Assembly: GCA_964016885.1 (NCBI GenBank)
Contig: OZ024740.1
Coordinates: 273,048,001 to 273,112,000, forward strand
Source: Eledone cirrhosa
Taxonomy: Eukaryota
DNA length: 64,000 nt
Reading direction: 5' to 3'
The first letter of the stretch is position 1. The number at the start of each line of letters is the position of its first letter. Below the pieces are notes generated by a model. The model worked only from the letters and a program-made list of their open reading frames with translations. It was not told where the DNA came from and did no database searches. Below, piece by piece: positions 12,619 through 60,289 of the stretch. The position numbers were made by a program, and so were the translations under genes.

Positions 12619-12638
12619 GTGCCTTTTCTCTTCACCAC

Positions 12639-17642: not shown

Positions 17643-17659
17643 ATCAACCATAATAATAA

Positions 17660-34380: not shown

Positions 34381-35535
34381 GTTAGATGTGACGAAGGAGA
34401 GAAAAGGTACGTGATATCAGAAGTAGAGTACGAAGAGGTTAACTCAATCAGCTTAAAATATTATCGTGTGGCTACTAGTATTATTCAGCACGAAAATCAT
34501 AAATTCTTCGAATAGAATTGGAGAAGGGAAGATAACTGTTATGGAATTATGAAAAACAGGAGATACGATGGATAAACTAAAGCCTCACGCACACATATAT
34601 TTGTATACTCGAATACTTATACATACATATCCAGATGAACACAAATGTCATATACACTGTCTGTGTTATACACGTAGACACAGATGTGTATGAATCGGAT
34701 TACAAATAAACATGCAAATGCATGACTATACCAATAAAAGCACAAGTTCAATGAACTGGCGATTTTACAACCATAGGTTGCCAAAATTGTGAGTTTTTAC
34801 ATTGAGTGAAAACAAGCATACATTTGAGGAGTATAGTACACAAAATATGAATATACAAAACTATGTAAAATATATTTCCCCACAGGTGGCTAATGACACA
34901 TGTTACAGTAGGACACTATCCAAGTCGCCAAATAGCTTTAAAATATAAAGCTAGTAGGAAATAAAAAATAAAAAAATGAAATCGGACCTCTTTAACCACT
35001 CTAGGCTAATCGCTCTCACTCACCTGTCAAGAATTATATCTGGGTTAGTATTCCCGTATCTACCTTTACCTAGTGGTAGTTCATAAGTCTGAACAGGGAT
35101 TTACCGAAGAAGAAGCTAATTGTATGGTGCCCCATTTCTTTAAGTATCGTGAACCACACGCTCTTTGTGTTATAGCCGTCAGACACAAGTACTACTTTCT
35201 AAAAGATGCTGGCTGAGTAATCCTTAAGTTGGATTCGACTGACTATAATAACAATATCAATGACCATAGTAATAATAATAACAATAATAATAATAATAAT
35301 AATAATGCTTTCTTTATTAACCACAAGGGTTTACATAAAGTAGACATTAAGGACAGTACAGGACAATACAGGACGGTACAAATGGGCATTTCTGCGTGTA
35401 AAAAAAACAGAGGATGTAATAAAAAAAATAACAATGAAAAATGTCCGAGGGACCTTTGTGGAGAAAGCCCATTAAAAGGCCACAGTGACCCTGACCACCA
35501 GGGCTAGTGCCCTCTGCCAGTTTTCCACCTTTAAT

Positions 35536-38376
35536 TTACAGACACATACTCAGAGTAGGCCCATTCACTCGGGCCATACTTGCTTCTCTCACCCATCTTT
35601 CAACAAAATGCTGGGAAGAGAGCACTTCCCTCTCTACCCTGATTTTCCTTTTCAAATGAAATTTGAAAAGGTTAATCAGGGCATCACCGAAGGGGTAAGT
35701 GCTCGTCTTCAGCCCTTTCAAACGTGTCCACCATACTATCTCTTTCGCCATGGCCACCAGACAGATAAAAACTGCCTGCCCTTTCCGGCTAAAGGAATCC
35801 TCACGATGGACTCAGCTGATAGCTGGATCAGTCCTACACGTGACAGCAGGTGTTCAACATAAACCCACAAGTCAGAAATGCTCGGACACTGGACGAGTGC
35901 GTGCAGGACGGTTTCGTCGCCCTGCGCGCATCTCGGACATGCCCGGCTGACGGCACCTCCATGCCCGTAGAGTTTATCCCGAACTGGCAAAGCTCCTCGG
36001 TAGCACTGCCAGGCCAGGGATTTCTGGAAGTTGTCCATAGGCCCCGGCCCGAAAGTCCTTCCGAAGAGATTGGCTACTTGATTTTCGTCGACGCCTAGAG
36101 TTTCTCCAAGTACATCGTCGCTCTTCCCCTCCACTAATCCTCTATAGAACGGCAAGGTGGAGTTTCCACCGATCACATTGCCCGATTGGTCGAGGGCTGT
36201 TAGCGCATGATGACATTCCAGTCTCCAAGCGCTCCCTCTCAGTCTTCGCTTAACCCAGGACTGCAGCTCCGTCAAGGAAGAGGTGGAGATGTCGTAGCCT
36301 GAGCGCGTGTCTGCGCATCATCAGCCACGGCATGCCCAGCCCTCCACGTAGCGGGTGTTGACAGCAGATGGAACGCCTGACCATCGGAGCGCGTCCCTTC
36401 CACAGAAAGCGAAAGAGCAAACGCTCCAGCGCAGTCAGGCGGGGCTTAGGACAAGGTACGACGGTCAGGCGGTAGTAGATGATGGACGCGATGTACGCGT
36501 TAGCCACCTCCACTCGACCTTTCAGGGATAGCTTCCTCTCCGCCCATTTCTGGGTGAGAGAAGCCACCCTGCTCGTCACATCGTCCCAGTTTTTGTCCAT
36601 CTGGAGGTCCGGACCGAACCAGTCCCCTAGCAATTTAACCGGTCCGTCCGTCCAGCGCCCGTCGACGCTGTTGGACGCCATGGACCTGCCTCTCCAGGTG
36701 CCGAGCTGCAGGCCCACTGACTTTTCCTGGTTGATCATTGCTCCGGTCACCGCTTTGTATTCTCTTAGTGTAGTGCCGATCGCCTCGATGTGTTTGGCGT
36801 TCGACACCACTACGTTAACATCGTCCGCATATGCTACACGGATCTTACGCATCCTAGTTTGCGCGGGATGCCCCTCAACGTTTCCAGATTGTGCAGTAAT
36901 GGCTCGAGTGTCAATACGTACAAGAGGGACGAGAGGGGACATCCTTGGCGGACCGAGCGCATGATGTTTAACGGTTCCGAAAGGTGACCGTTCCCTCTCA
37001 CCACAGAGCAGATGTCGTTGTGCATGGCAGCGATCCAGCCTCTGAAGACGGGCCCAAAGCCAGCCGCTCTCAGGACTGCCGCTAGGTAACGATGGTCGAC
37101 CCTATCGAAAGCTTTCGACTGATCTAAATAGATCAAGGACCCACCCGTGACAGGTTCCCTAGCTACCCTCTCTACGATGTATCGCATGAGGTGGAGGTTG
37201 TCGTGGATATATCTGTCGGGAATGGCGCATGTCTGCGCCTCTCACACCAGATCACCGACGACAAGCGCCAACCGCTTTGCTAGCACCTTGGCCAACAATT
37301 TTTAGCAGACTTATGGGCTTGAAATTATCTATGTTATCCCCTTATTCGGATCCTTTCTCAGCAGCGCCACAGCTCCTCGGCTCACAGAGCTGGGAATTCT
37401 CCGTTCTGTTGCCAGTTGCAGTAGACGTCCGCCAAGAGGCCTCCGAACAAGTCTGGCATCTGTACGTAAAGTTCATAGGGCAGACCATCCACACCAGGCG
37501 ATTTACCCCTTGTGCAGCCAGTCATTGTTTCCCGTATTCAGCGGTTGTTATCGGCTTTTCGCAACACTCAGCCTCAGTGGCCGAGAGCAGCGGCAGTCCG
37601 TCGAGGTAGACACTAAAGTCCATCCCTCGATTCGGCCCGCCGCTGCCCCCGAACAGCTGTGCGAAGTGTCACTGAAAAGCTTCACACATTTGCCCGGCAT
37701 CGAGTAGCATGCGCCCGTCGTGGTCCACCAAAGACCGGATCGACGCGCCTCCGCCACTCGGGCCCATTGAACGGCTTTTGTCCCCTCGTGTCTAAGAGCA
37801 CGCACCCTAGCTCCGACAACGCAGCCTTCGTGCTTTGCATTGAAGAATTGGTCAAGGGCCAATTTCGCCGCAAGTACGTCGGTCGCGATGCCTTTGCTAA
37901 GCGCCTCGTCTAATTTTCTAACTAGTTCTCCCTCTGCTGTATTTTTCTCTATTGCTAAAGCCCTACTAAACCTAATGGACTCTATTCTAATCGCTCTTTT
38001 CAGAGCAAACCACCACTTGTTGTTGACGATGGCCCCCGTCAACGCCCGCTTAACTAGTTCGCTAATCCGGTCTCTGTAAGCCTTGCGCGCTGGTAAGGAC
38101 GCGTTTATCTTCTAGTAGCCGGGTCTTCGTCTATGAAGCCTATCCAAATCTTTCCGAAAAAGCACAGCAACTCCTCCCCCCGATCCAGGACGGCTGGGAG
38201 ATGCGTACACATCGTAGCCGCCGAAGATCGGTGCGAAGGCCCGTGCTTCGGAGGTTCTGGTCTCTCTGTTGGCCACTACATCTATGTTTAGTGACCTGAG
38301 GTCGTTGAGCAGGTGGCCCTGCTTCCGTGACGACCCCAAGCCACGCATATATGCTGCCTATTCTGAGTAAGGTTAT
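35536..38376 (-). pseudogene. LINE ORF2, disrupted
   Basis: LDQSKAFDRV, RQGCPLS, AYADD, CPRCAQGDETVLHALVQC; the start codon position reads ATA. Confidence 0.92.
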
Positions 38377-38410
38377 GTTGAAATGGAGTGGAAAAGATGG
38401 GAAAGACCAT

Positions 38411-39914
38411 TTACCTTACTTCTCGTATAGGAAGGATGGTTTGTCCATCCTTTTCACTGCTTGTGGCCTCTTCCGGAAGGATGTCCTTATGAATCCTCCT
38501 GGAGAGTGCTTGTCGGAAGTCTCCGATGTCTTTGGGGAATTTTTGTTTTAGTGCCGTGTGCGTTTTCTGTGTGATGCGAGTGAACTTTTGGGTTGTTGTG
38601 TAGTCTTTTTCTGCGATGCTGGTGTTGGGTTGGATGTAGTGTAATAATTGGTTGTTGTTCAAATTTAATGCTGTGTAGTGTGTATCGTTTTGGTTGTTTT
38701 GTTTTGTTTGCGTTTGTTGTGGGGTTGTTGCTGTTACAGTTGCTTCTGTTGTTGCTGCCATTTCTGCTGCTGGTGGTGTTGATGGTTGAGTCACTGGGGT
38801 GGGTAATAGAGGTTGCCTCAACCTTTTAGCCCGAGGGCAGAAAGCCCTTAGGTGGGTTCCTTCACCACAAATGACACACCTAGGCCTTCTGCCCTCGACG
38901 ATTACGGTGAGGTGGCTGCCGTCAGTGAGGTCTATTACCTCTGGGATCTCCTCAATGCTTTTTTGGTCCGCTTGGATCAGGAGCTCCATTCCAGATCCGG
39001 ACCAGTTCTGCTGCTTTTCTTTCGCTATTTCGATTATCTTAGTGTTGGCCTCGATGCCGGCGAGGACGGCAGCCATTAGCCAGGGAATTTCGATGGCCGG
39101 TTGAACGTGGTTCACCCTGATCTTCACGAGTCACTGGCCACAATAGCTTGGGACGAGTGTGAAGTCGTCACTTCTTAATGGGGCCATGGAGTATTCTCTG
39201 GCCTCCTGTTGTCTTCCAAAGAACACGTCCACGGTTCCATATTTCTGCCCACATCTGATGTGGGGTTTTTTTGCCCACACATGTCCCAAAGCTTTTTGGA
39301 TTCGGGACTCGGATGCTCGTTCCACTCGGCGCGATTTTATATTAATCGTCCGATAAGACACGGTGCATAGGCGCCGATGTGCGATTTTATTAGGTGGGAT
39401 GGTGGGGGGGGGGGGGTGAGTCTGACCCTGTACCCATCTTTCTTTACCATTCTCTTGGCTTCATCTAATTCCTCCTGAGTTACCTGGATTGCTTCGCACT
39501 TTTTTGCTGCACTGGCAAAAGACAGCGTGGTTTTCTTATTCTCATTGTTGCTGTTGCTGTTGTTGTTATCGTTTTTTTGTTATTGTTATTTTTAGTTTCA
39601 GTTGTGTTGGTGGTGGCTTCAATGGTGTTCGGTGTGGAAGAGTCCATTCTGGGTGAATCCATTTCGATGTCACGAGATAATTTATTATTTTTTTCTTTTG
39701 TTTCTGTTGTCGCTGTCGCTGTGATGGTGGTGGGGGTGGCGGCTGCAACACCTGCAGTCATTGGTAATGGCGGGAATTGAATGTCTGCATGAGACAAATT
39801 TAAATTATTGCTACTGCTTATATTTTTAGTATTGGCAAACGTAGTAATATTTACAATGGTGGTGTCGGTGTGAGGTGTTAGTTTGTGAGGAAGGTGTGAC
39901 TGTGAGTCGTCCAT
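38411..39914 (-). pseudogene. LINE ORF1, disrupted
   Basis: Thr/Asn-rich N-terminus; VEGRRPRCVICGEGTHLRAFC; LKQKFPKDIG. Confidence 0.85.
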
Positions 39915-40125
39915 GATTTTTTCAAAGAAATATTTGTTTGATAATTATAACAGTTTAAATTAGGGCTCAAGGCCCCAATATATTTGAGTGTCCTTTTCAG
40001 AAAACAATGTATGTGCACTTATATACAGTTAACAATAAAAAATTTCCATAAATGGCAATTTTAAACAACTGAAAACAACAAACTTTGCGGAGCTCACGAT
40101 AATACGATTTCCTACGTAGGTCGCC

Positions 40126-40163
<38 letters not shown>

Positions 40164-40412
40164 TTTCATTTATTGGCCACAAGGGCCGACATATAGGGGA
40201 CAACACAATAGACAGGGACAGTGGGGGTTTACATAGAGATCGAGTAAGTATAAATAACAAAAACAAAATAACAATAAAAATACAACAATGAAAGTTCCCC
40301 AATAAGAGGGATCACCACCCAGGGTTGACTCAAGCACCCCACCAGTCCTGAGCCACCCGACGCTCCTAGGGCACCCGGGAAGGGCACCCCTCTCCTTCTC
40401 GAATTCACCAGC

Positions 40413-43400
40413 CTACAGGCGCATGATCAGAGTAGGCCCACTCACGCGGGCCATTCTCGCCACATTCACCCACCTTTCAGTAAATGTACTGGGGGGCAGC
40501 ACTTCTCTCTCCACCCTCACCTTCCTTTCCAAGTGAAACTTGAAGAAGTTGATGAGGGATTGGCCGAAGAGAAAAGTGTCTGTCTTCAGTCCTTTCAACC
40601 TGGTCCACCATGCAACCTCTTTCGCTACTGCCACCAGGCAGAGGAAAATTGCCTGCCTTTCCTGACCAAAAGAAGGCGGCGGGTCAATCTTCACTATGGA
40701 CTCGGACGATAGCCGGATCCGTTCTACACGCGACAATAGCTGTTCGACATAACCCCACAAGTCAGCAATGCACGGACACTGGACGAGTGCGTGCAGAACG
40801 GTTTCGTCGCTCTGCGCGCATCTCGGGCAGGTTCGTCTGACAGCACTTCCGTGCCTGTAGAGTTTATCCCGAACCGGCAGCGCCCCCCGGTAGCACTGCC
40901 AAGCGAGGGATTTCTGGAAGTTATCCATCGTCCCCGGCTCGAAAGTCCTCCGGAACATACTGGTCAGTTCTACTTCGTTGACGCCTAGAGCCTCTCCTAG
41001 TACGTCATCGTACTTGCCCTCCACTAATCCTCTATAGAAATCTTGAGTGGAAGTTCCACTGACCGCATTGCCCACCTTGCAGAGTGCAGTGAGCGCCTGG
41101 CAACATTCCAGATGCCAGTCGCCCAGTCTCGGTCTCTTCTTGACCCAGGACTGCAGTTCAGTCAAAGAGATGAGCTGCGGAAAGGCCCGTCTGACAAACG
41201 GCGACCACACCTGTTCATCGTTTAGGCAAAATATCTGGAGATGTCGCAGCCTCAGCGCATGTCTGCGCATCATTAGCCACGGCTTGCCCAGCCCTCCACG
41301 AAGAGGGTGCTGGCAGCAGATGGACCGCCTCACCAACGGGACCCGTCCCCTCCACAAAAATTTGAAAAGGAGCCGTTCCAAATTGGCGAGGCGTGGACGG
41401 GGGCAAGGCACGACGGTCAGGCGGTAGTAGATGACGGACGCGATGTACGCGTTCGCCACCTCCGCCCGCTCTTTCAGTGATAGCTTTCTCTCAGCCCATT
41501 TCTGGGTGAGGTTGACTATCCTGCTTGTCACCTCGTCCCAATTCTTATCCACCTGGAGGTCTGGTCCGAACCAAACCCCGAGCAACTTTACCGGTCCGTC
41601 TGTCCAGCGCCCCACGACGCTGTTGGACGGCATGGACTTGCCTCTCCAGGTGCCGAGCTGCAAGCCCACCGACTTTTCCAGGTTAAGTTTTGCTCCCGTC
41701 AACCTTTCATATTCCTCCAAATGGGTGCGGATCACCTCGATTTCCGAGGTGTCCGACACCATCACGGTGATGTCGTCCGCATAAGCGGACGCAGCCTTTC
41801 TACGTCCCGATTCGAGCGGGATGCCCTGCAACAACTCCAGCTTCCGCAGTAGAGGCTCAAGAGTCAATACGTACAGAAGTGAGGAGAGAGGGCACCCTTG
41901 ACGGACCGATCGAGAGATCTGAAACGGTTCCGAGAGGTGGCCATTAACTTTGACCACCGAGCAGATGCCGCTGTACATTGCAGCGATCCAGCTTCTGAAG
42001 ACGGGGCCGAAGCCAGCCGCCTCGAGGACAGCTTTCAAGTACCGATGGTCGACCCTATCGAATGCTTTCGATTGATCTAAATTGATCAGAGCCCCACTGA
42101 AGCCAGGTTTGCACCCAACCCTCTCTATGATGTATCACATGAGGTGGAGGTTGTCGTGTTTGGACCTGGTCGGGATTGCGCAAGTTTGCGCCTCCCCAAC
42201 CAAATCTTTGACGACAAGCGCCAACCTTTTCGCTAACACCTTGGTCAAAATCTTAAACTCTGTGTTGAGCAGGGTTATGGGCCTGAAATTATCTAGTGTG
42301 TCCCTCTTGTTCTCGTCTTTCCTTATCAGCGTCACTACGTCACGGCTCACAGAACTGGGAATGCTCCCGTTCTGCTGACAGTTGCAGTAGAGCGCTTCGA
42401 GGAGATCGGAGAACAAGTCTGGCATATTTACGTAAAGCTCGTAGGGCAGACCATCCAAACCGGGTGACTTGCGACTCGAGCAGCCGACAAGGGCGTCCTG
42501 AATTTCGACTGATGTTATCGGCTCTTCGCAGCGCTCAGCGTCGGCCGTCGAGAGGCGTGGCAAGCCGTCGAGGTAGGGACTGAAGTCCGCCGCCGTCTCC
42601 GACTCACCCATCCCCCCGAACAATCGAGCAAAGTGCTGGCGAAAGGCCTCACACATCTGCTTGGAATCGCTCAGTTCGTGTCCATCTCGATCCGTCAAAG
42701 ACCGAATTGTGGTTTTATTTCCACGCTGCGTCTCTGCAAAGCGAGCCCATCGGGCAGCTTTGGTTCCCTCGTTCCTCAGAGCACGCGCCTTAGCTCTGAC
42801 AATGCAACCTTCGTGTTTCGCATTGAAGAAATGGTCTAGTGCCATTCTCGCCGCTAGCACGTCTGTTGCAATGCCACTACAAATAGCCTCGTCTAACTTA
42901 GCTATCAGCCCCTCCTCCTTTCTATTTTTCTCTATTGCTACTTCTTTGCTAAATCCTATCGAGGTTGCTCCAATCTCTCTTTTGAGAGCCCCCCACCACC
43001 TGTTGTTGACAACCCCCCCTGTCAACTTTTGCTTAACTAAGTTGTTGACCCGGTCCCTGTAAGCTTTACGTGCCGGAAACGACATGTTTAGCTTCCAGTA
43101 GCTAGGTCCTAACCTACGTGTCTTATCTAGGTCGACCATACAGATCACAAGCTTGTGATCTGAATAGGCAACCGTTTTAAAATGTGGACATCCTACACTA
43201 TTTCTATCTCTTTTCCTAATGAAAATCCTATCTATGTACGATCTAGATGACCCTATGCGATTGGTCCAGGTCCATACTGGCGCATTAGGGAAATCTAGTC
43301 GGTACCTGTCAGACAGTTGAAACTGGCTGATCAGGTACTTGAGGCTTTTGCACCCCCCGCTCCTATCAGATACTCCCACACAATCCCAGCGTGCTTCTAA

Positions 43401-43832
43401 GATGCCATTCCAATCCCCTATTAACAGTAAAGGGCGAGACGTAAGCAGAAAGTTTTCCAGGCGCCTAAAGAAGTCCGGCCGACCGGCCCCAGTAGGGGCG
43501 TAGACGGCCACCAGTCTAAAGGCACCACCTTCGCCATTGCTCACGTCCAGGACCACCAACTTTCCGACAGGATCCCGGAAGATTGACCTTACCTCGAGAT
43601 CCAGACATTTCCTAAACAGCACAGCCACTCCACCTCCCATTCCCGGCCGACTAACAGATGCAAAGATCTGATAATCGTCGAAAATCGGCGCCAGTGCGCG
43701 TGTGTCGGAAATTCTGGTCTCGTTGATGGCAATTACATCCATTCCTAGTGACCTGAGGTCGTTGAGCAAGCGACCTTGCTTCCAGGGCGACCCCAGGCCA
43801 CGAACATTTAAACTTCCTACTCTTATGGCCAT
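40413..43832 (-). pseudogene. LINE ORF2 (APE-RT-CCHC, 1139 codons) with a single in-frame TGA at 42135-42137
   Basis: Track ORFs 42135..43832 and 40413..42038 are in the same frame; sister copies have CGA (LHLMR) at this codon. Confidence 0.95.
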
Positions 43833-43861
43833 GCTGGCAGGATGAATGGGAGAGGAAAGGT

Positions 43862-45771
43862 TTACTTACCTTCCGGGGTCTTGTGAAGGTCGGGTGGTTC
43901 GACCTCCATGGTTTGTGGGGTTTCTTTTGGGAACCCCTTTAATAGTCTTGAAGTGGGTTTTACGTTCGGGGTTCCCACATCCCGAGGAAAGCTCTTTCGA
44001 ATTTCTTTGTATGAAGCGAGCGACATTCGCATCAGAAGCAAATTATCTGGTACGCGAAATGTGCTCGCTTCAAATGTTTCCCCCTCTTTTTCGATGTTTG
44101 TGCTTCGTGCTACATGGGCCATCAATTCCTTGTTGGCCCTTCTGGCAAGCACGAAGTTTTTAATGTTTTGTTGCTCGGGTTTTATTTGTTCGTGTGATTG
44201 TGGTGGTGATAGCTTTGTTAGTGTTGTTTCTATTGTGTCTGCGTTTGTTGTGGGTGGGGTGTCTGTAGTTTCTGATGTTTGTGTGTCTATTTGTTCTTGT
44301 GTCTGTTTAGCTTGTTTGCGTTTGGGGGATTTTGGTGGTTGTGTTGGTGATGCTGTGGGGAAAATGTTTGTGTGGGTGGTGTGTGTATTTTTTTTTGTGG
44401 GGGTGTTTGTGCTTTGTGGATTTCTTTTTTTTTGTGTTTTGTTTTTTGTATTTTGGGGGACTTTGGTTTTCCCTCATCTTCACTGCTGGAGGATGAGGGG
44501 TCTGTGGCTGTGAGCGTGTTTGTGTCTGAGTGAGTGTTTATGTTCTTGTTCGTGTGTGTATTTTGGGGGGGAGGGGGAATGGGAGAGCTTTCCTCGTTTC
44601 CCCCCTGGGTGTGCAATTTTGGTGGTTCCATTGTTGACGGTGTTGCTGGTGGTCCTTGTCCCGGCGTCGCCAGCAGTGGAATCTTTCGACCCCTTGCGCT
44701 TTTCGGCAGTTGAGGGCAGAAGGCTCGCAAGTGTGTCGTTTCCCCACAAAGGAAACAATGTGGCCTTTTGCCCTCAGTCATTATATGCAACACCCTCCCG
44801 TTTTGGAGGCGGATGTGGTCCGGGATTGCTTTTACGTTTTCGGGTCTGATTTGGAGCAGTATCTCCAGATCAACCCCGGACCAGTCGTCCCTGGCAGTTC
44901 TCGTTGCCTCTACCGGGACTGTATCCGTTCCTTCCACGATTACGCAACCCAGGAGCCACCACATATCAAGTCCTGGTGGAATCCTGGGAATGCGCACACG
45001 TGCTATTCGTTTTCCCATGTGGGAGGGGTACATTATGACCTTGCTGGTTTTGCAAGGGGTCATTGAATGCTTCACAGCGAGGGCTTCAGACTTGAACAGC
45101 ACCGAAACGGTGCCGTATTGCCTGCCCCTCTCTATGAAGTCTGTGTCCTCTCTGATGTATTTCAGTGCGGCTTCTATATCAGCTTGGGCGATTATCGCTG
45201 CCCTCTTTGTCTCTACTGAGATGCATCTGAAATGCACCGTTCTTTTTTCCACTGCCTCAATGGCTTCTGCCGGGACAGTTAAGTTTGCCCAGGTCTGCTC
45301 TTGATTTATGATTTTCCAGGCCTGGGCCAACTTTTCCTCTCTGTTGGTTAAGTCGATGCTGTAGCATGGTCTCCTTTTAGCCGCTGCCACAGCAGCGAAG
45401 GTGTTCTTGTTGGTGTTGTCACTGTTGTTGTTTTTGTTGGTGTTGCTGCTGCTATTGCTGTTGTTGTTCTCCCCTGTGTCGTGGTTACCCTCTGTGCTGT
45501 TGGCCTTGTTGGTGCTGCTGCTGTCGCTACTATTACTCTCTGTGCTGTTCGTTTTGTTGGTGCTCTCGCTATTACCACCTTCTGCGCTGTTCGGCTTGTT
45601 GGTGTTGGTGTTGTCGCTGTTACCACCTTCCGCGCCGCTCGGCCCGTTGGTGCTGGCACTGTCGCTGCTCACACTCGTGCTGGTGGCGCTCCTCGCCCCA
45701 CCTCTCCTCTCAACGCTCAAGTCGCCGTTGCACGACAGCAGACTCGCCTCTAGGGGGCGTGGCTCCGCCAT
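43862..45771 (-). CDS. LINE ORF1 (gag-like, CCHC), with a net frameshift in the low-complexity linker
   Basis: TFAAVA, CFLCGETTHLRAFC; C-terminal YKEIRKSFPRDVG lies in another frame. Confidence 0.85.
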
Positions 45772-46002
45772 GTTTTTTTGAGAAAAAAATTATTATTTTT
45801 CCAAAATAAAGTTCAAATATTTGGGCCAAAAGGCCCAAATATTATGAGTTATTCCTTCACAGGATACAAATGAATGTCTTATAATGCTTCAGCGGTACAA
45901 AAAAATAAACAATTCTCTACAATTAATCCTCAAAAATTGCTTACTCACGGAGCTTCAAAAAACGTACATCCACTTTCGTCAATAATAATAATAATAATAA
46001 TA

Positions 46003-47721: not shown

Positions 47722-47795
47722 GGCTGCAGGTAGTGGCTTGATATTCATTCCAACGGACTTTCCAGTTAACCAACATCAATGACTGAGATTCAAGG
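46003..47795 (+). mobile_element. R4/Dong-clade LINE copy 1, 5'-truncated
   Basis: Begins inside the RT directly after (AAT)8; short 3' UTR followed by (AAC/AAT)n. Confidence 0.92.
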
Positions 47796-47804
47796 AATAA
47801 CAAC

Positions 47805-47840
<36 letters not shown>

Positions 47841-47843
<3 letters not shown>

Positions 47844-48337
47844 TTTAGCATCCAAACAGACCGAAAAATAGATGCAAATAGACCTGATATAATACTGAAG
47901 GACTTTAAAAAGAGGGTGTGCCTGCTAATTGATATGTCCGTTCCAATAGAAAAGAATGTATCTATAAAAACATTTGAAAAATTGAGCAAGTATAAGGACA
48001 TGGAGATATAAATTGGAAAAATGTGGAAATTGAGAACTAAAACAATACCAGTGGTTGTAGACGCTCTAGGAATGATATCTAAGGGCTCTAATGATTACTT
48101 ATCGCAAATCCAAGGAAACCCGCGTATAGGAGAAATACAAAAGATAGTACTAATGGGAACTGCCCATATACTAAGGAAGATTCTGTCAATATAAGTACAT
48201 CACAAGTCTAAACACCTAAAGATGCATGTGCGTGTATGTATGTTTTTTCTTGAACATGGCGGACCTTGTCTCTTGAGGTCATTGGTTGTGACCTGGTGAT
48301 AACTGGTATGAACATAAAGCAAGATAAATGCAACTCT
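47841..48337 (+). mobile_element. R4/Dong-clade LINE of a different family, heavily 5'-truncated (RLE only)
   Basis: Hand translation NFSIQTDRKIDANRPDIILKD..LLIDMSVP..EKLSKYKD..TIPVVV.ALG..LMGTAHILRKILSI*; (AAT)n on both sides. Confidence 0.88.
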
Positions 48338-48404
48338 AATAATAATTATAATAATAATATATATTTTTTAATGTTTTCATTTATTTATTTTTTTATTTAT
48401 TTAT

Positions 48405-51400
48405 GTTCGTCTACAGCGTGATGGTACCACGCTAAAATCACCGGTGGTTATGTAACCATACATTCACCAATCCTCGATATGAGTGTTTAAATGTCGAACC
48501 TAAACAGTTCGAATAACGGTGAAGAGGATACTGGAACGTCATGTGAAAGACTCTCCCCCAGCAAGTGCTCCCTGGCCCAGCAGCAGGGACCTGGCTGTCA
48601 TCCAAATACTGCTGGTGTTGGAGGAAGAAAAGAAGAAGGAAAGAGACAAGAACCAACTGGACGAAAGAATTGAATAGAACTGTCCTGGAATGTTACCTGA
48701 AGAGTAACCTCATGGAAAAAGGCTATAGGAAACGGATGCATAACATCTGGAACGAGATTGTTCTATTTAAGTTAGATGAACAAAAATTGGCCGGGCAGGG
48801 TCCGGTAATAAGAACTAATGGATGGATAAGCGAGTTTGAACTGGAGGAACTGAGCAGAGAGATTAAGTTGGAAATGGAGAATGGAGTATGTGAGGCAAAC
48901 GAGCCAGTGGGAAATGAAGGTGAAGAGGTTGAGAGACCTGAGGAAGCATCCGAAGCAGACAATGATCTGAATGCTGAAATAGATAACATCTGGAACAAAG
49001 ATACGGCCATTGAGTTAATGAATGCTGACGCGCTAGGATAAGATTTGGTTGATATCATGAACTTAGTGGTAGCTGAAATGAACAATGATAGTGGAAAACC
49101 TATGAACCTAAGATTTGTAGACAGGAAAAAGTTAAAAGAAACAACAGCTAAGGTAAACAAAGTCATCCCATACCTTGAGGCAAGGAGCCTTCACCAATGC
49201 AACAATATCCTCAAAGCAACAGCAAATGCGGCGAGGAAATTACTTGGCAGAAAAATGAGAGAAAACAACAAACAAGAAAGAACCTTGGTGGAAGAAACGA
49301 CTGAATGGGTAAATCAAGGAAATAAGAAAAGACATTGGAAAGCTTGAGTCCTTACTAAATGGGACATTACAAAACATAGACACTAAAGATAGATTGGAAA
49401 TAAAGTACAAAACCAGGGGGGAAAGCTAAATATTATCATAAACTGAAGTAACGCATTTTAGCAAAAAGTGCAAAGATTAGGCGGTATGTGAACAGAACCG
49501 CATGTTTGACAACAACCAGAAGATGTTGTTTGGACAGCTTGAAGGGAAAGAAAGAGGCAACGACTTGATCCCTGAGGCGGAACAGACTAAGACATTCTGG
49601 AGAGGAATATGGGAACTAGATGTTGAACATAATAGCCAGGCAGTGTGGATTGAGACAGTTCAAAAAGAGATTAGTGAAGAAGCACACCAACAACCTGATT
49701 TGAGTATCACAGTTGAAACTCTTAAAGGGCAGGCCAAAAAACTAACCAACTGGAAATCACCAGACCCAGATGGTGTGCAAGGGTATTGGATTACAAATAT
49801 AACATCTCTCCACCCGAAACTGACAACCATGTTCAATGACTGCTTGATGTCGCGTGAGGTACAAGAGTGGTTGAGAAAAGGTACCACAGTTCTGGTAATG
49901 AAAGACCGCATCAATGATAATGATGTTACCAACTATAGGCCTATCACATGTCTGTCCGTAATGTGGAAACTGTTAACAAGCATTGTGTCTGAGGAAATCT
50001 ACCATCACCTCCACATAAACAACTTGTTACCGGACGAACAGAAAGGATGCCGAATGAAGTCCCGTGGTACAAAAGACCAGTTACTTATTGATAAGTTGGT
50101 AATGAGGAATTGCAAGAGGAGGCACACTGGTCTTGCCATGAGATTGATAGATTACAAAAAAGGCATTCGACGTTGTACGTCATTCTTGGATAACCAAAAG
50201 CCTAGAGATCTTCAAGGTGGCAGATAACATCAGACAGTTGTTGAGCAAAAGTATGAAATCCTGGGAAACTGAGTTAACATCGGGTGGAGAATCCTTGGGA
50301 GGCGTGAAGATCAAGAGAGGTATCTTCCAGGGAGAGTCCCATCTGCTGTTTGTCCTTGCCCTGATATCCCTGACCGTTATATTGCGAAAATTGAGAACAG
50401 GATACAAGTTGGGAAAAGGAGAGCTTACCATCAATCACATCCTCTTCATGGACGATCTTAAACTGTTTGGGGTGAGTGAGAAGGAGTTGGATGTACTTGA
50501 CACTGTTCGTATTTACAGCAATGGTATATGTATACAATTTAGTATTAATAAATGTAGAGACCTAGATGAAGAGCAGAAACAACGGAATCCAGGTACCAAC
50601 AGGTGAGATGATAAAGGAAATTGACACTGAAGAGGGATACAAATATTTAGTTGTTCTGGAGGCTGATGACATCAAGAACAAAAAATGAAGGAATTGATAA
50701 GATCTGTGTACATAAGGAGAGTAAGTAGCGTATTAAAATCACATCTTAACAGTAGGAATGCCATAAGTGCAGTAAATTCCCGAGCTGTGTCTATTATTAG
50801 GTACAGTGCGGGAATTCTGAGATGGAATGTTGCTGAACAAAAAGAAATGGATAGGAAGACTAGGAAGCTATTGACTATCTACAACATGTTCCACAAGAGG
50901 AGTGATGTCGATAGACTCTACTTAAAGAGATCTGAAGGTGGAAGACGTCTTATCAGCATAGAGGACTGTGTTCAGATGGAGAAAAACAACCTGCACAAAT
51001 ACGTGACTGACAGTAGGGAGCAATGCTCAAAATTGTACTGAAGCAGAAAACAATAGACCAGGGAATGTCCAAGGAGGAAATAACGGGAAAGGAGGTAGAG
51101 CAACCTTCATGAAAAATCCCTTCATAATACCTTCTTTAGGAAAACTGAATTTAGAGATCCACAGACATGGAACTAGTTAAAAAGAGGAGACCTTAAAAAA
51201 GCTATAGAAGTAATGCTAATGGCTGCGCAAGAGCAGGCCCTCAAACGAAGTGGTTGAAACACCATATTTACAAGGAGGAGGCTAGCCCACTGTGCAGGAT
51301 CTGTGGAGAGAGAGAGGAGACTGTGGCTCACATTGTATCCGAGTGTAAACACCTAGCCCAGACTCACTATAAAGGCTGGAGACATGATGTGATGGGCAGG

Positions 51401-51921
51401 GTGATCCACTGGTACCTATGCAAAGTAAACAATTTACCACATTCTGATGAGCATAAGCCAGAGCCGGTGATAGAAAACGATCAGGTGAAGGTTATGTGGG
51501 ATTTTAGGATACAGACGGACAAGAAACTGGAACACAATAGACCTAACCTGGTGGTTTTGGACAAGGAAAAAAGATAGTGCCTGATTGTGGATGTGGCCTG
51601 CCAATTCGACACGAGAGTGCAAGAGAAGGAGAGGGAGAAAATTAACCGATACCAGGACTTAAAGTCGGAGTTAAAAAGGATTTGGAACTGCCATGAAATC
51701 AAGGTCGTCCCGATTGTCATAGGCGCACTAGGTACTATCTCAAGGAGTTTCCACGGATGGTGACAGAAGATTAGTCCAACCCCGCTTTTTGGAACACTTC
51801 AAAAGACATGCTTGCTGGGAACAGCAAGAACCCTCCGATACGTCCTGAATATCTGAGGTTGCAAGTAGCGGCTTGATATTCATTTCAACAAACTTTCCAG
51901 TTAAATAACATCAACTTAAAG
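48405..51921 (+). mobile_element. R4/Dong-clade LINE copy 3, near full length, decayed
   Basis: RTNWTKELN..CY, NWKSPDPDG, NYRPITCL, EQKGC, LFMDD, CCHC, RLE; same family as 46003-47795. Confidence 0.92.
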
Positions 51922-51948
51922 AATAACAACAATAATAATAATAATAAT

Positions 51949-54900
51949 GATTTTATTTATTGGCCACAAGGGCTGACATTAAGAAAAAACATTACAGACG
52001 GCCCAGGACGGTACGATGGGGGTATTGTGCGTGTAAAGATTTTTATTATTTATATAAGAAACGAAAAAGAAAAAAATAGACATAGGAACATATATATATA
52101 AACAGTAAATATGAAAATTCAAAAAATGAAAAATTCCCCAATAGGGGGGAAACCTCCGAGGGTTACTCGTAGCGAAAACCACATAAAAGAACATGGCCAC
52201 CCTGAACACCAGGGCAAGCGCTCTCTCTCAAATTTTCCATTCCTCAAACCACAAGCGTATATTCAGAGCGGTCCCGTTCACTCGGACCATTCTCGCTACA
52301 TTAACCCACTTTTCAACAAACTTGCTAGAAGACAGCACTTGCTCTCCACCCTGATTTTTCTGTTCAAGTGAAACTTGAAAAAGTTAATCAGGGATTCACC
52401 GAAAAGGAAAGTGTCTGTCTTTAATTCTTTCAACCTTGTCCACCACACAATCTCTTTCGCCATGGCCACCAGGCAGATGAAAACTCCCTGCCCTTCCTCC
52501 TCGAAGGAAGACGGCGAGACCATCTGCACAATGGACTCAGTCGATAACCGGATCGGTCCTACACGCGAGAGCAGCTGTTCGACATATCTCCACAAGTCAG
52601 CAATGCTCGGGTATTGAACGAGTGCGTGCACGATGGTTTCGTCGCTCTGCGCGCATCTCGAACAGGCTCGGCTGACGGCACTTCAGTGCCTGTAGAGCTT
52701 ATCTCGAACCGGCAACGCTCCCCTGTAGCACTGCCAGGCCACGGATTTCTGGAAGTTATACATAGGCCCTTGGCTGAAAGTTCTCCCGAAGAGAGCAAAC
52801 AGCTGATCTTCTCATCGCCCAGGATCTCTCCGAGAACGTCGTCGCTATTCTCCTCCATCCACTAGTCCCTATAGAACTGGATGTTCCACCGATACTGGTG
52901 CCCAGCTGGCAGAGGGGGGGTGAATGCCTGGAGACATTCCAGTTTCCAAGCGCTATCCCTCGGTCTTTTCCTGACCAAGGATAGCAGCTCCGTCAAGGAG
53001 ACGAGCTGTGCGAAAACGTGCCCGGCGACCAGTGACCTCAGCTGTTCACCGTCAAGGAAGCACCAGAGATGTAGCAGCCTCCGCGCATGTTTGCGCATCA
53101 TCAGCGATAGCATGCACAGTCCTCCACGCAACGGGTGTTGACAGCAGATGCTTCGTCTGACCATGGCAGCGCGTCCCCTCCCTAAAATGCGGAAGAGGAG
53201 GCGCTCCATTTTGGTGAGAGTTGGGCCGGGGCAAGGGACGACGGTGAGGCGGTAGCAGATGGCGGATGCGATATATGCATTTGCCACCTCCGCCCGGCCT
53301 TTCAGGGACAGTTTCCTTTCGGCCCATTTCTGGGTGAGGGAGGCCACCCTGCTCGTCACCTCGCTCCAGTTTTTCTCCATCTGGAGGTCCGGTCCGAACC
53401 AGACCCCAAGCAATTTAACCGGTCCGTCCGTCCAACGCCCCACGACGCTGTCGGACGGTATGGACTTGCCTCTCCAGGTGCCGAGCTGCAACCCCACCGA
53501 CTTTTTCTGGTTTATCTTTGCTCCTGTCACTGCTTCGTATTCCTTGAGAGCGGTGCCGAGCATCTGGACGTGTCTCGTGCTCGACACCACTACGGTGACG
53601 TCGTCGGCGCAAGCCGACTCTGATTTCCTGCATCCTAGTTCGCGTGGGACGCCCCTCATCGCCCCCAGTTTGTGCAGTAACGGCTCGGGCCAATACGTAC
53701 AACAGGGACGAGAGGGGACAACCCTGCTGGCGGACCGAGCGCATGATTATGAAGGGCTGCAACATGTGACCGTTCAACCTCACCACCGAGCAGATGTCGC
53801 TGTACATCGCAGCAATCCAACACGTGAAAACGGCCCGAAACCGGCTGCCCCGAGGACCGCCGTCAGGTACCGATGGTAGACCCTATCGAATGATTTGGAT
53901 TGATCCAAGTTGATCAGGGTCACAGCCGTGTCAGGTTCTTTAACCACGCTCTCTACGATGTATCGCATGAGGTGGAGGTTGTCGTGTATGGGTTGCTAGC
54001 ACCTTGGCCAAAATCTTGTGTTTAGCAGAGTTATGGGCATGAAGTTATCGATAACATCCCCTTGTTCGGGTCTTTTCTCAGCAGCGCCACCTCTCGCCGG
54101 CTCACAAAATTGGGAATGCTCCCGTTCTGCTGTCAGTTGCAGTAGACGCCTGACAAAACGTCAGCGAACAAGTCTGGAATAAATGAATAAAGCTCGTAGG
54201 GCAGACCATAGAAACCTGGCGATTTACCCCTCGTGCAGTTTGCCATCGCTTCCCGTATTTCACCGGCTGTTATTCGCATTTCACAACACTGTGCTGCCGT
54301 CGTTGAGAGCCGAGGCAGTCCGTCGAGGTATGCACTGAAGTCCATACCCCGATCCGGCCCGCCGTTGCTCCCGAAAAGTTCAGCAAAATGCTGCTGAAAA
54401 GCCTCACACATCTGCTCGGGTTCGAGCAACACGCGCCCGTTTTCGGCAGACCAAAACCGAATTGTGGATTTGTTGCCACGTCGCGCCTCTTCCACCCGGT
54501 CCTATTGGACGGTTTTCGTCTCCTCGTGTTTCAGCACGCGTTCTAGCTCTGACAACGCAGCCTTTGTATTTTGCGTTGAAGAATTGGACGAGTGTCAATC
54601 TCGCCGCAAGCACGTCGGTTGCGATGCCTGTCTTAACGCCTCTTCTAGCTTTCTGACAAACTCTCCCTCTACTCTATTTTCCTCTATCACTAGTCCTTTG
54701 CTAAACCTAATGGACTCTACTTTAATTGCCCTTTTCAGGGCAAACCACCACCTGTTGTTGACGACCACTCCCGTCAACGTCCGCTCAACTAATACGCTAC
54801 TCCGGTCTCTGTAGGCTTTGTGCGCTGGGAAAAACGCGTTCAGCTTCCAGTAACCGGGTCCTTGTCTATGAAGTCTGTCTATGTCGATCTCACAGATCAC

Positions 54901-57900
54901 AAATTTGTGGTCTGTTTAGTCGACTATTTTAAATTGTAGACAACTTATACCAGCCTTATCTACTTCTCTACAGAATACCCTATCGAGATACGATCTGTAT
55001 GACCCGATGCGGTTTGTCCATGTCCACATTGGCACATTCGGGTGATCCAGTCGATACCTGTCAGACTGTTCAAAACGTCTGACAGGTTGGTGAGGCTCTT
55101 GCACCCTTATCCCCGACGCACTAGCCCCACACAATCCCAGCATCCATCGAAGATACCGTTCCAGTCGCCCACTAACACTAAAGAGCGGGACGTTCCAAGA
55201 AAGGTCTCTAGACGTCTGAAGAAATCTGGCCGTCCTGCCCCAGTTGGGCGTAGACGGCTACTAGCCTGAAAGCATTGCCTTCGCTGCCGGCCACATCCAG
55301 CACCACCGACTTACCTTCTGGGTCCAGGAAGATGGCCCGTATGGCGAGATCCAAGCCTCTCAGAAAAAGGATGGCAACCCCTCCCCCTATTCATGGAGGG
55401 CTGGGACATGCGTATACATCGTAGCCGCCGAAGATCGATGCGAAGGAACGTGCCTCGGAGATTCTGGTCTCGCTGATGGCCACCACATCTATGTTTAGTG
55501 ACCTGAGGTCGTTGAGCACATGACGCTGCTTCCAAGATGACCCCAGGCCACGTACATTTATACTGTCTATTCTAAGTACGGCCATATTGGATGAGAAACG
55601 GGGCAAGTGAGAAAGGGTCACTTAACTTGATCGTGTGGTGAAGGGACAGTAGAACCGTCCCTTTGGCTGGTCATGGGTGTTTTCAACAGGATGTCAGTGT
55701 ATATCTTCTTGGTAACCGACCCTCTGAAGTCTCCAACTGCGTTGGGGAATTTTTGTTTTAAAAGTTTGTAATGTTCTATTTTGATATCAATGATGCTTAT
55801 GTTTGTCGGGAGAGTTCTTGGTGCTGGTGGTGTGTAGTAGTTTTTCTCTGTGATGTCTTTTTGCTGCTTCATATGTTGTATGAGTTCTTTATTTGCGATG
55901 TCTATGGCTGTGTACCTTTTGGGTGAGAGGTGATTTTGTTGCTCTTTTCTCCTTGTTGATGTTGGGTGTGTGTGTTTTGTTGTGTTTGCGTTGTTGATGT
56001 TTTTGGTGATGCTGGTGGTGGTGTGGTTGTTGTTGGCGGTGGTGATTGTGGTGGAGATGGTGGTGGTGTTGCTGCAAGTCTCCTTGCAGCCTTTACCCCT
56101 CTTTGTGTGCCTTCGCTTTTGGAGGGTGAATCAAAGGGTTTTTTTCTTTTTTGTTTTTTTGTGGCAGACCGTTTGCCACTTCACTCCATGTCGGATTCCG
56201 TGGCGTCTGGCAGAGGTATGCGCTCCACGGCTGTTGGTGGTGGTAGTGGAGCCCTCTCCGGCGATTTTGTTGCTGGTGCAGCTACTGCAAATGTAACTAC
56301 TGGTGTTGCCGCCACTGATGCTGCTGCTTTAGTTGTCCGTGGCCTTGGTACGTGTTCCACGGACGCTGCCCTCTTACTCACCGTTGAGGGGGCTTCTGTG
56401 TTTGTTGCCTGCCATTCTCTTGGTAGCAGCGGACCAGGCATTGGAAGGAGAGGGGTCTTCTTCTTCGCTGCCTTCTGCGAGCAAAAGGCCCTGAGGTGAC
56501 CCTTTGACCTACAGAGATAACATTTTGGCCGTCTTCCTTCCACGCTTATAGGGAGCTCGAGTCCTTCCTCTAGGTCTATGATATCGGGGATAGCGTCAAT
56601 ACACTTCTGGTCAGTTTGTATAAGCATTTGCATGCCTATACCTGACCAGGTTTCTCTCCCTATTTTCTCTACTTGCAGCATGGTCGTCCTGTCCTCGATC
56701 CCAGCAAGGACAGACGCGGCCAGCCAAGGTATGGGCACGTCGGGTGGGACCTGGGTCACTTTGACCCTCACAATTTTCTGCCCGCAGTAGGAGGGCACCA
56801 AGACTATCTCCCCACTCTTTAGGGTTTCCAAAGTGTGAGACTTCACTTCTTGGGGGGTGGCGAAAAGTATGTCTACTGTGGTGTACTTTCTGCCTCGGGG
56901 GATGTGGGTTTTGCGCGCCCAGACGCACCCCATCCTTTTGTATTTGAGCCTAGGTGGCTCTCTCCACCCGATGTGACGTTTTGCTTATGGTGCAGTAAGT
57001 CACCGTCCGTAGCTGCTGGTCCTTGAAAAAATCGGGTGGAGTTTTCAGGGAAACTCTATTGGCGCTTCTTGTCATCATGGCCCTTGCGACTGCCATCTCC
57101 TCCTCTGCGACTAACACTGTCTCGATATTTCGGGTCACACCTGCAAAAGAAGTGGTCCCTTTTTCAGCAGCACCACTATTGCTGCCGTTACTGGTCTTAC
57201 TGGTGGTGCTGAGATCGCTGTTACAGGTATCGATGTCATTGTTGATGTTTTCGTTGGTACTGTTGTCGCTGTTTTTGCTGTTGTTGTTGTTTTCGTTGAT
57301 ACTGTTGTTGTTGTTACTGTTATTGTGGATGTTGTTATTATTGTTGTTTCTGTTGATACTGTTCCTACTATTATTGATGTTGTGGCTGTTTTTATTGTCA
57401 TTGTAATTCTTGTTCTCGACCTTACCGCTGTTATTTTTGTTATTGTCGTTCTCGACCTTACCGCTGATATTGTTGTTGTTGCTGTTGTTTTTGATGGTGT
57501 TGTTGTTGGTGTTATTGTTGGCGTTGTTTGTGTTAGAAATAGTTGGTAATTTTAAATCTGTGACAATATCATTAAAAATGATATTGTTCCTCTTTTCCTT
57601 CGTAATATTTCCTTTTACTAGAACGCTGTCTTGTTGATATGTTGACAAAGTCTTCCTCCCTCTGTGTTGTCTGACAGCGCTCTCTCTCTTTCTTGTGTTT
57701 TCTATGTTGAGAGAAATTTTGTTTTCAAATAATATTTTTAGATAATATGACACCCCGTAAAGGGGTACCGTATTATTTACGAGTGAATCCCTGTATTAGG
57801 TGGGGCACTTCTTCTAAATTGTTATCAAGTTTAAAACTTGAATAAAAGGTTTAGAACGGTTGAAAACGAGGTAAACTGTTGAAAAAAAATGGAGGCGATA

Positions 57901-57920
57901 AGAAGCGTGGCTTCACCATC
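51949..57920 (-). mobile_element. Tx1/L1-group LINE copy 5, full length, decayed
   Basis: ORF1 ~57705-55618 (poly-Asn, SFAGV, CYLCRSKGHLRAFC); ORF2 55585-~52244; tail cccttgtggccaataaataaaatc-(ATT)n. Confidence 0.94.
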
Positions 57921-58302
57921 AATAATAATTGTTTCTACTTTTGGCACAAGGCCAGCAAATTACCCAGTGCATTACTGGTACTTTATTTTATCAACCCCGT
58001 AAGGATGAAAGGCAAAGTCAACCTCGGCGTGATTTGTAATAACTAATAATAATTGTTTCTACGTTAGGCACAAGGCCAGCAAATACCCAGTGTATTACTG
58101 GTACTTTATTTTATCGACCCCGTAATAAATAATAATAATGATTTCTAGTATAGGCACAACTCCAGTAATTTGAGGGGGGAAAGGGTCAATTTCATTGACC
58201 CCCAGTACGTTACTGGTGCTTTATTTTATCGACCCCGTAAGGATGAACGGCAAAGTTAACTTCGACGGCATTTGAACTCAGAATGTAAAGGACCATAACT
58301 CT
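57921..58302 (-). mobile_element. Three stacked 5'-truncated SINE A copies separated by (AAT)n
   Basis: Tails at ~57930, ~58053 and ~58140. Confidence 0.9.
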
Positions 58303-58310
58303 AATAATAA

Positions 58311-58385
<75 letters not shown>
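58303..58385. repeat. (AAT)3-(AGT)n microsatellite closing the cluster
   Basis: Directly visible. Confidence 0.98.
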
Positions 58386-60167: not shown

Positions 60168-60289
60168 GCGCGCGCGCACACACTTATATATATGTATATA
60201 TATATAGTGTTTTTGCAACAATAAAACTTTAAAGGAACATCACCAGTTCGGCCTTCTGTTGTTAATCAAACCAATATATATATATTTAC

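What the first reader, a model, noticed from the sequence alone, without database searches (positions are those of the whole stretch)
35265..58385. 23-kb polar retroelement train on one (AAT)n landing pad shared by two endonuclease classes
Seen: six LINEs (Tx1-, Tx1-, Dong+, Dong+, Dong+, Tx1-) and three SINE fragments sit end to end. None interrupts the body of another, and every junction is an (AAT)n tract (~35268, 40126, 45981, 47796, 48338, 51922, 57921, 58045, 58130, 58303). APE-type Tx1 elements and SINEs all read (ATT)n on their sense strand; RLE-type Dong elements all read (AAT)n. The smaller cluster at 17.2-20.6 kb (SINE, SINE, Tx1) follows the same rule. Known: Bombyx Dong targets TAA repeats, and some Tx1 families (Kibi, Koshi) target other microsatellites. 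Inference: unrelated APE and RLE nucleases converge on opposite strands of one trinucleotide repeat, and each insertion regenerates the target. That would give a self-extending, non-destructive array that might also supply dual-strand small RNAs.
Basis: partly seen in the sequence, partly recalled or inferred. Interest (0 to 1): 0.85.

Follow-up and report, generated by a model that had tools for sequence, protein, structure and literature searches.

The report
Two retrotransposon classes share one microsatellite
Across this animal genome, two unrelated kinds of jumping gene sit in the same AAT repeat facing opposite ways, likely because each inserts there and leaves repeat on both sides for the next, which builds ordered chains like this 23-kb one.

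Summary
The window holds three L1/Tx1-group APE LINEs (minus strand) and three R4/Dong-type RLE LINEs (plus strand) of different ages, joined by (AAT)n tracts.

In G000, full-length copies of the three APE families have a perfect ATT run of 12 nt or more directly 5' in 28/29, 26/29 and 17/29 cases (background 3e-4). 14/15 visible Dong truncation points abut (AAT)n. Neighbours within 10 kb keep the polarity: Dong-Dong same strand 22:0, APE-APE 25:1, Dong-APE opposite 18:1. Trains of 16 kb or more recur, so this one is typical.

Corrections: SINEs do not target the microsatellite (2/30 in long runs). They need only ATTAT, show 9-21 bp duplications and sometimes break LINE bodies. Truncated APE copies are looser (4/15). 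The small-RNA idea is untested, and reads could not bridge the array.

Two additions: the SINEs share a 3' hairpin with the APE LINEs (likely partners), and a sister family has switched tail and target together to (TATC)n.

Verdict: new variant of known microsatellite targeting (Kibi/Koshi, Dong; SART/TRAS logic).

The parts
35268..35306 (.). Left (AAT)n tract; 3' tail/target of TxA
35307..40125 (-). TxA: L1/Tx1-group APE LINE with both ends, ORFs broken; 6,439 exact copies of a 30-mer from its 3' end in G000
   Evidence: best identity of the 3' 480 bp to fetched copies 93%
40126..40161 (.). (AAT)12 between the TxA 5' end and the TxB 3' end
40162..45980 (-). TxB: youngest APE LINE, full length (5.8 kb); ORF1 about 45771-43862 (split), ORF2 43832-40413 (APE-RT-zf) with one in-frame stop at 42135
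   Evidence: 99.8% to other copies
45981..46004 (.). (AAT)8; head-to-head junction of the TxB 5' end and the DongA truncation point
46005..47796 (+). DongA: 5'-truncated RT-CCHC-RLE LINE, open frame of 571 aa; 4,430 exact copies of a 25-mer from its 3' end
   Evidence: 99.2% to other copies
47797..47840 (.). AAC/(AAT)12 tract
47841..48337 (+). DongB: 3' 0.5 kb of a second Dong-like family (RLE motif RPD...IDMSVP...EK..KY)
   Evidence: translation; no nucleotide match to DongA/C; 95% to other copies
48338..48359 (.). Imperfect (AAT)n tract
48362..51921 (+). DongC: Dong LINE truncated in its 5' UTR, ORF broken; same family as DongA (88%)
51922..51948 (.). AAC/(AAT)6 tract; tail-to-tail junction of DongC and TxC
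51949..57920 (-). TxC: most diverged APE LINE, both ends, heavily broken; sits in the tail of a SINE
   Evidence: 90% to other copies
57921..58310 (-). Three 5'-truncated SINE pieces (about 57930-58036, 58054-58123, 58140-58302), each ending in the shared 3' hairpin and a short ATT run
58311..58385 (.). (TAG)25 closing the train on the right
17205..20600 (-). Smaller cluster: SINE, SINE (joined by a duplication of about 15 bp), (AAT)6, internally deleted APE LINE (TxE) without AAT at its 5' end
10900..16350 (+). TxD: sister APE LINE (about 71% nt to TxB) with a TTATC/(TATC)n tail and target; used as control

Best explanation
The train is a chain of six LINEs and three SINE pieces of different ages joined by (AAT)n, likely built by repeated target-primed insertions into one microsatellite, where three L1/Tx1-group APE families would nick the AAT strand and Dong-type RLE elements the ATT strand. 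Shown: flank preference, polarity, differing ages, and genome-wide recurrence. Inferred from the standard TPRT model: the first nick is on the strand antisense to the element, so APE elements that read (ATT)n prime from the AAT strand and Dong from the ATT strand. Each insertion splits the tract and leaves repeat on both sides, so the next element lands between earlier ones in a fixed orientation. Inferred for the APE families: specificity is shared between the endonuclease (a TTAT-type core, beta-hairpin loop) and annealing of an AUU-ended RNA to the nicked strand. The copies have no poly(A) although an AATAAA lies about 7 nt before the tail, and the sister family changed tail and target together. 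The SINE likely borrows the APE machinery through a shared 3' hairpin, needs only ATTAT, and its short ATT tails seed new pads.
For: 5' flanks of full-length copies, queries without any ATT: perfect run of 12 nt or more in 28/29 TxB, 26/29 TxA, 17/29 TxC, against 111/370,602 background positions; nearly all junctions read ...TT|G. Dong: 14 of 15 visible 5' truncation points, which the element cannot encode, abut (AAT)n; 3' run of 12 nt or more in 25/30. Listed hits on C1 within 10 kb: Dong-Dong same strand 22:0, TxA-TxA 25:1, Dong-TxA opposite 18:1; 27 of 51 Dong hits have a TxA end within 16 kb against a mean of 2.7 (maximum 9) in 2,000 random placings. 23 of 40 full-length APE copies have an element directly upstream and 23/23 follow the rule. 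Best identities of 90-99.8% show sequential insertion, not duplication. TxD: 21/30 ends begin TTATCT, none has an (ATT)n tail, unique duplications of 15-17 bp in L092 and L303; its EN loop reads NRSG where TxA/B/C read NRIG. Shared hairpin.
Against: Truncated TxA copies are looser: of 15 visible 5' ends only 4 abut a clear ATT run of 12 nt or more; 2 abut (TTC)n, 1 follows a same-strand Dong tail, and the rest are short, degenerate or alignment breaks. 8/30 TxA 3' ends have runs under 12 nt. Some flanks are not independent (L012/L014/L018 share one; several are tails of the same families), and the full-length sets are the top-scoring 30 of 40 scored among 479-2,279 candidates. SINEs interrupt TxA at one internal site (L141, L147, L159 twice) and TxC (L085), and chimeric elements exist (L122, L087). 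Duplication length for LINEs inside pure repeat cannot be read. No biochemistry.
Confidence: 0.75

Rival explanations
1. The APE endonuclease is only a loose TpA/TTAT nicker, and the target is chosen almost wholly by base-pairing of the RNA's 3' repeat to the nicked strand, so the tail programs the target.
For: Tail and target co-switch in TxD. SINEs with a short AUUAU end use short ATTAT sites, LINEs read through into long tracts. No poly(A) in copies. SART1 can prime internally from a target-like triplet (PMC7265360, passages).
Against: The EN hairpin also differs between ATT and TATC families. EN swaps transfer specificity between SART1 and TRAS1 (PMC7265360, passages), and the hairpin affects recognition in TRAS1 and R1Bm (PMC1919474, passages).
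Confidence: 0.3
2. The perfect 5' ATT of full-length APE copies is a leader carried on the RNA (co-transcribed flank), so it overstates target specificity.
For: Invariant ...ATT|G phase in full-length copies against 4/15 in truncated copies. Dong 5' UTRs carry an internal AAT tract with an antisense SINE piece shared by several copies.
Against: In the 40 copies read over 10 kb I saw no clear case of a unique duplication lying outside the 5' ATT run (by eye). 3' runs are long too (22/30). Dong truncations cannot be explained this way.
Confidence: 0.15
3. Insertion is random and trains reflect survival in gene-poor repeat patches, with AAT as mere tails.
For: The genome is rich in microsatellites and LINEs; tails alone would explain 3' tracts.
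Against: It cannot give 5' tracts at truncation points, a fixed junction phase, or cross-class polarity of 18:1. The much commoner (AT)n tracts of the window carry none of the train's junctions.
Confidence: 0.04
4. This particular 23-kb order is a mis-join of the assembly through AAT tracts.
For: Contig gap 0.9 kb to the left. The two adjacent Dong copies share a variant seen in 0/62 other copies, which polishing cross-talk could produce.
Against: The elements differ from each other and in age. The same junction types recur at dozens of loci on many contigs, so the rule does not depend on this locus.
Confidence: 0.08

Closest known systems
Kibi (TC)n, Koshi (TTC)n and crocodilian Tx1 families (TTCC/TTTC)n
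   Same: APE LINEs of the Tx1 group that insert into a microsatellite (PMC3812793 and PMC4494074, passages).
   Different: The target here is (ATT)n, with a sister family on (TATC)n; neither is among the targets in those passages. The host is an octopod-like mollusc (closest named protein Argonauta hians, 66%). Clade membership was not tested by a tree.
Dong (Bombyx), DongAg, DongBg (snail): TAA-targeting
   Same: Same target repeat, (TAA)n (PMC3812793, passage); RT-CCHC-RLE layout. Dong-R4 is listed as abundant and recently active in octopus (PMC13282606, first third plus passages; PMC9115989 and PMC8967140, passages).
   Different: Here it shares the tract with APE LINEs in opposite orientation. 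The octopus passages I saw do not mention its target or arrays.
SART1 and TRAS1 in (TTAGG)n of Bombyx
   Same: Two families insert into one short repeat in opposite directions (PMC7265360, passage).
   Different: Those are both APE elements of the R1 clade and telomeric; here an APE and an RLE class share dispersed interstitial pads.
R1 (APE) and R2 (RLE) in 28S rDNA
   Same: The two endonuclease classes converge on one multicopy target (recalled; R1Bm in 28S seen in PMC1919474 passages).
   Different: They use distinct fixed sites of a gene and do not renew them; here the target is a 3-nt repeat kept on both sides of each insertion.
SINEU mobilised by Tx1-Mar; stringent SINE/LINE pairs with a shared 3' stem-loop (eel and zebrafish L2, a monocot L1 lineage)
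   Same: SINE riding a Tx1-type LINE (PMC4494074, passages); shared 3' hairpin as recognition signal (PMC4176376, PMC3747384, passages).
   Different: For SINEU the link rests on shared target preference; here the SINE and five APE families share the hairpin sequence with compensatory changes. Whether this SINE is one of the octopus OK/OR1/OR2 families was not tested.

Membership tests
L1 group (APE LINE) | Two ORFs; ORF2 = APE endonuclease, RT, C-terminal zinc motif | tested here: met
   TxB: Exo_endo_phos 7e-15, RVT_1, zf-RVT; translations; L128 has both ORFs uninterrupted, 642 and 1150 aa. TxC gave no Pfam hit in 7 fragments but matches TxB ORF2 by tblastn.
L1 group (APE LINE) | Closest solved relative is LINE-1 ORF2p | tested here: met
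   Top PDB hits are human L1 ORF2p (1e-27) and L1 EN; no R1/TRAS EN among 12 hits.
Tx1 clade | RT phylogeny groups with Tx1L/Keno/Kibi/Koshi | not testable with these tools
   No named Tx1 reference appeared; no tree was built.
Tx1 clade | Target-sequence preference | tested here: met
   far above the 20% criterion used in PMC4494074.
Classical L1 (relaxed, poly(A)) | 3' poly(A) tail | tested here: not met
   No poly(A) after any of 30 TxA or 30 TxD ends; a conserved hairpin and a repeat instead.
R4/Dong | RT followed by CCHC and a PD-(D/E)xK restriction-like endonuclease | tested here: met
   all 5 PDB hits are R2-type proteins, with the RLE stretch aligned; RPD codon is Asp in 48 of 51 motif hits. 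The two window copies read Asn.
R4/Dong | Insertion into (TAA)n | tested here: met
   14/15 truncation points and 25/30 3' ends.
R4/Dong | RT phylogeny with Dong/Rex6 rather than HERO or NeSL | not testable with these tools
   No named references among the 120 listed hits; the motif resemblance is recalled.
SINE | Short, non-coding, high copy, with duplications and a LINE-like 3' end | tested here: met
   63,217 exact 29-mer hits; duplications in 15/30; shared 3' end.
SINE | tRNA-derived Pol III head | tested here: inconclusive
   ARAGORN found 0 genes; Rfam gave no tRNA hit at E<=1 on 17150-17700. Diverged heads often escape both.
Microsatellite-targeted element (SINE here) | Flanked by the long repeat | tested here: not met
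   2 of 30 have a 3' ATT run of 12 nt or more.

The most novel reading that the evidence does not exclude
Octopods harbour an L1/Tx1-group lineage whose target is programmed by the repeat at its RNA 3' end (ATT in three families, TATC in a sister), which recognises its RNA by a conserved hairpin shared with a SINE of over 60,000 copies, and which together with RLE-type Dong turns one trinucleotide repeat into thousands of self-renewing, polar LINE arrays that read each other in antisense.
Probability: 0.3. Interest if true: 0.75.

Novelty: new variant of a known kind. Interest (0 to 1): 0.5.

Why it matters
It gives a sequence rule for how much of the LINE and SINE content of this 3-Gb genome is laid out: clustered, polar and mostly between rather than within earlier copies. 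That bears on TE hotspot maps, on assembly and on insertion calling in cephalopods. The review passage seen (PMC3812793) says the mechanism of microsatellite targeting by such elements is not well understood. Here young, near-identical families with different tails and targets (ATT, TATC), a known loop difference and a partner SINE make the question 'endonuclease or RNA tail' directly testable by swaps. APE and RLE enzymes sharing one 3-nt repeat on opposite strands is a clean case of convergence, though each half has precedent.

Tried and rejected
A DNA search with the Dong 3' end found nothing, not even the window's own copy (very common words are skipped); an exact pattern replaced it. Read check: no RNA holder listed, so expression and small RNAs stay open. 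Laying 4 of 15 listed runs on 34400-54300 showed the left flank in one contig but no listed piece across a junction, as the AAT tracts are skipped: inconclusive. Three protein searches, a cluster look-up and the Atlas gave no named Tx1 or Dong reference. Duplication length of LINEs inside pure repeat could not be read. 'Dong here has a dead RPN nuclease' was rejected as a family trait: Asp in 48/51. 'SINEs target the microsatellite' and 'this locus is exceptional' were rejected. Three look-ups of earlier findings were empty. Literature: nine searches showed no report of an (ATT)n-targeting Tx1 family, of Tx1-Dong arrays or of this SINE-LINE pair; (Tx1/non-LTR with AAT, ATT or TAA repeat phrases) returned 0. 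Repbase entries, Kojima and Fujiwara 2004, Ohshima and Okada 1994 and paper supplements were not seen and may already record these targets.
Full report
Setting. The window is G000:C1:273,048,001-273,112,000 of a 3.0-Gb genome, rich in dinucleotide repeats. The closest named protein relative of the youngest LINE is from Argonauta hians (66%), so the host is probably an octopod (inference).

Observation. All ten tracts exist where stated. The train reads TxA- (35307-40125), TxB- (40162-45980), DongA+ (46005-47796), DongB+ (47841-48337), DongC+ (48362-51921), TxC- (51949-57920), three SINE pieces on minus, and (TAG)25. TxB has ORF1 and an APE-RT-zinc ORF2 with one stop, and its best solved relative is human L1 ORF2p. 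DongA encodes RT-CCHC-RLE and hits only R2-type structures. DongB is the RLE end of a second family. The best identity of each 3' end to fetched copies runs from 90% (TxC) to 99.8% (TxB), so the train grew by separate insertions over time.

Target or tail? A 3' repeat could be a tail, so I read 5' ends. Queries of about 210 bp from each 5' end, without ATT, gave 479, 2,279 and 628 candidates; 40 were scored and 30 fetched per family, one being the window's own. A perfect ATT run of 12 nt or more ends at the junction in 28/29 TxB, 26/29 TxA and 17/29 TxC copies, against 111 of 370,602 background positions. The phase is nearly always ...TT|G. Some flanks are shared (L012/L014/L018) or are tails of the same families, so the counts are not all independent. 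For Dong, a 25-mer has 4,430 exact copies. In the first 30 by position, 14 of 15 visible truncation points abut (AAT)n and 25/30 3' ends carry 12 nt or more. Against strictness: among the first 30 of 6,439 TxA 3' ends, 22 have runs of 12 nt or more, but only 4 of 15 visible truncated 5' ends abut a clear long run; two abut (TTC)n and one follows a same-strand Dong tail.

Polarity and arrays. From the first 100 listed hits of each pattern on C1, neighbours within 10 kb are Dong-Dong same strand 22:0, TxA-TxA 25:1 and Dong-TxA opposite 18:1. Of the 51 Dong hits in the shared interval, 27 have a TxA end within 16 kb, against 2.7 at random. Of 40 full-length APE copies, 23 have an element directly upstream (11 APE same strand, 7 Dong opposite, 5 SINE same strand), with no violation. 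I extended 18 of these 40 loci, chosen because a LINE reached or neared the edge, and found trains of about 16-19 kb or more at L125, L130, L134, L140, L150, L152 and L159. Five same-strand TxA ends at 6-7 kb spacing are listed at C1:55.42-55.45 Mb (not fetched). The window's train is therefore typical of a genome-wide process.

SINEs. A 29-mer has 63,217 exact copies. In the first 30, only 2 have a 3' ATT run of 12 nt or more; 15 show 9-21 bp duplications that start at ATTAT, most continuing in non-repeat sequence (two further candidates dropped: one inside (AT)n, one a tandem SINE). SINEs break TxA at one internal site (L141, L147, twice in L159) and TxC (L085). Their last 30 or so nt align with the 3' ends of all five APE elements of the window. 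A 4-bp stem around a CUUGU-type loop pairs in 81.7% of cells, with two-sided changes at 3 of 4 pairs (covariation 0.395, reached by 0/500 shuffles). I drew this structure from the same sequences, so the control flatters it. The SINE is likely mobilised by these LINEs, and several TxC copies, the window's included, sit in short SINE tails.

A natural control. TxD (10.9-16.35 kb, about 71% nt to TxB) keeps the hairpin but ends in TTATC/(TATC)n: 21/30 of the first of 165 exact hits begin TTATCT and none has an (ATT)n tail. Its truncated 5' ends often abut (TATC)n, and unique duplications of 15 and 17 bp occur (L092, L303). The loop before the conserved SYxD motif of the endonuclease reads NRIG in nearly all TxA/B/C copies and NRSG in the three TxD-like copies. 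That this is the specificity hairpin is recalled from L1 EN; its role in TRAS1 and R1Bm is in PMC1919474 (passages). Tail, target and loop changed together, so sequence alone cannot separate enzyme from RNA guidance.

Mechanism. Shown: flank preference, polarity, ages, recurrence. Inferred from TPRT: the first nick is antisense to the element, so APE elements prime from the AAT strand and Dong from the ATT strand; repeat remains on both sides and receives the next insertion in a set orientation. Inferred: an AUU-ended RNA anneals to the nicked strand, since an AATAAA precedes the tail yet no copy has poly(A). Untested: nuclease specificity, SINE trans-mobilisation, antisense or small RNAs.

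Assembly. A 200-N gap lies 0.9 kb left of the train. Contigs and RAD reads from 4 of 15 listed runs could not bridge the junctions, so this exact order is unverified. The rule does not depend on it.

Known versus new. Kibi, Koshi and crocodilian Tx1 target TC, TTC and TTCC/TTTC; Dong targets TAA in silkworm, mosquito and a snail (PMC3812793, PMC4494074, passages). SART1 and TRAS1 enter one repeat in opposite directions (PMC7265360, passages). R1 and R2 share 28S rDNA (recalled). Octopus repeat papers list Dong-R4 and L1-Tx1, and the parts I saw name no targets (PMC13282606 first third plus passages; PMC9115989; PMC8967140; passages). PMC4640811, PMC5786205, PMC3747384, PMC4176376, PMC4758252 and PMC4824008 were seen as passages only and showed no octopus Tx1-SINE pair. 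Nine searches found no report of the ATT target or of these arrays; Repbase and supplements were not seen. Membership of the Tx1 and R4 clades fits architecture and target but lacks a tree.

Verdict. Real, genome-wide, and a new variant of known microsatellite targeting. Interest 0.5.

Noticed in passing
window 47410 and the matching site in DongC near 51540: Both adjacent Dong copies read RPN instead of RPD in the endonuclease motif; 0 of 62 other copies carry this base. Local gene conversion or polishing cross-talk; identity between the two varies from 75 to 97% per 100 bp.
   Followed up: partly
L164, L167, L168, L173, L181 (upstream of the match to window 48400): Long Dong 5' UTRs seem to contain a shared internal AAT tract followed in several copies by an antisense SINE 3' piece, as if a former flank was captured into the UTR.
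   Followed up: partly
L128: A TxB copy with both reading frames uninterrupted (642 and 1150 aa); most of the 20 TxB copies read over 10 kb are full length at 98-99%, suggesting recent activity.
   Followed up: partly
TxA position about 1457-1476 (window about 38650-38669); L141, L147, L159: An internal ATTATT site receives SINEs of different lengths in several TxA copies; a loose contig end in X1 marks the same place.
   Followed up: partly
L117, L305, L096: TxD copies follow short elements ending in the same hairpin with a (TATC)n tail, suggesting a second SINE or LINE set and trains on the TATC repeat.
   Followed up: no
L294, L296: Truncated TxA copies with (TTC)n at the 5' side and (ATT)n at the 3' side; compound microsatellite targets or deletion.
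   Followed up: no
window 30116-32274 (-): A 502-aa open frame without Pfam hit next to a weak GIY-YIG hit (E 0.007); possibly a Penelope-like element.
   Followed up: no
window 20602-20772 and 21290-21457: Inverted repeat pair (81%) right after the 5' break of TxE, possibly a small DNA transposon.
   Followed up: no
window 23618-24301, 6237-6565, 60281-60456: Palindromic repeat units around (TA)n tracts, also seen at 60.3 kb; possibly TA-associated MITEs.
   Followed up: no
L122, L087: Chimeric LINEs (TxB 5' half on a TxA 3' half; Dong fused into a TxA 3' end), pointing to recombination within trains.
   Followed up: no
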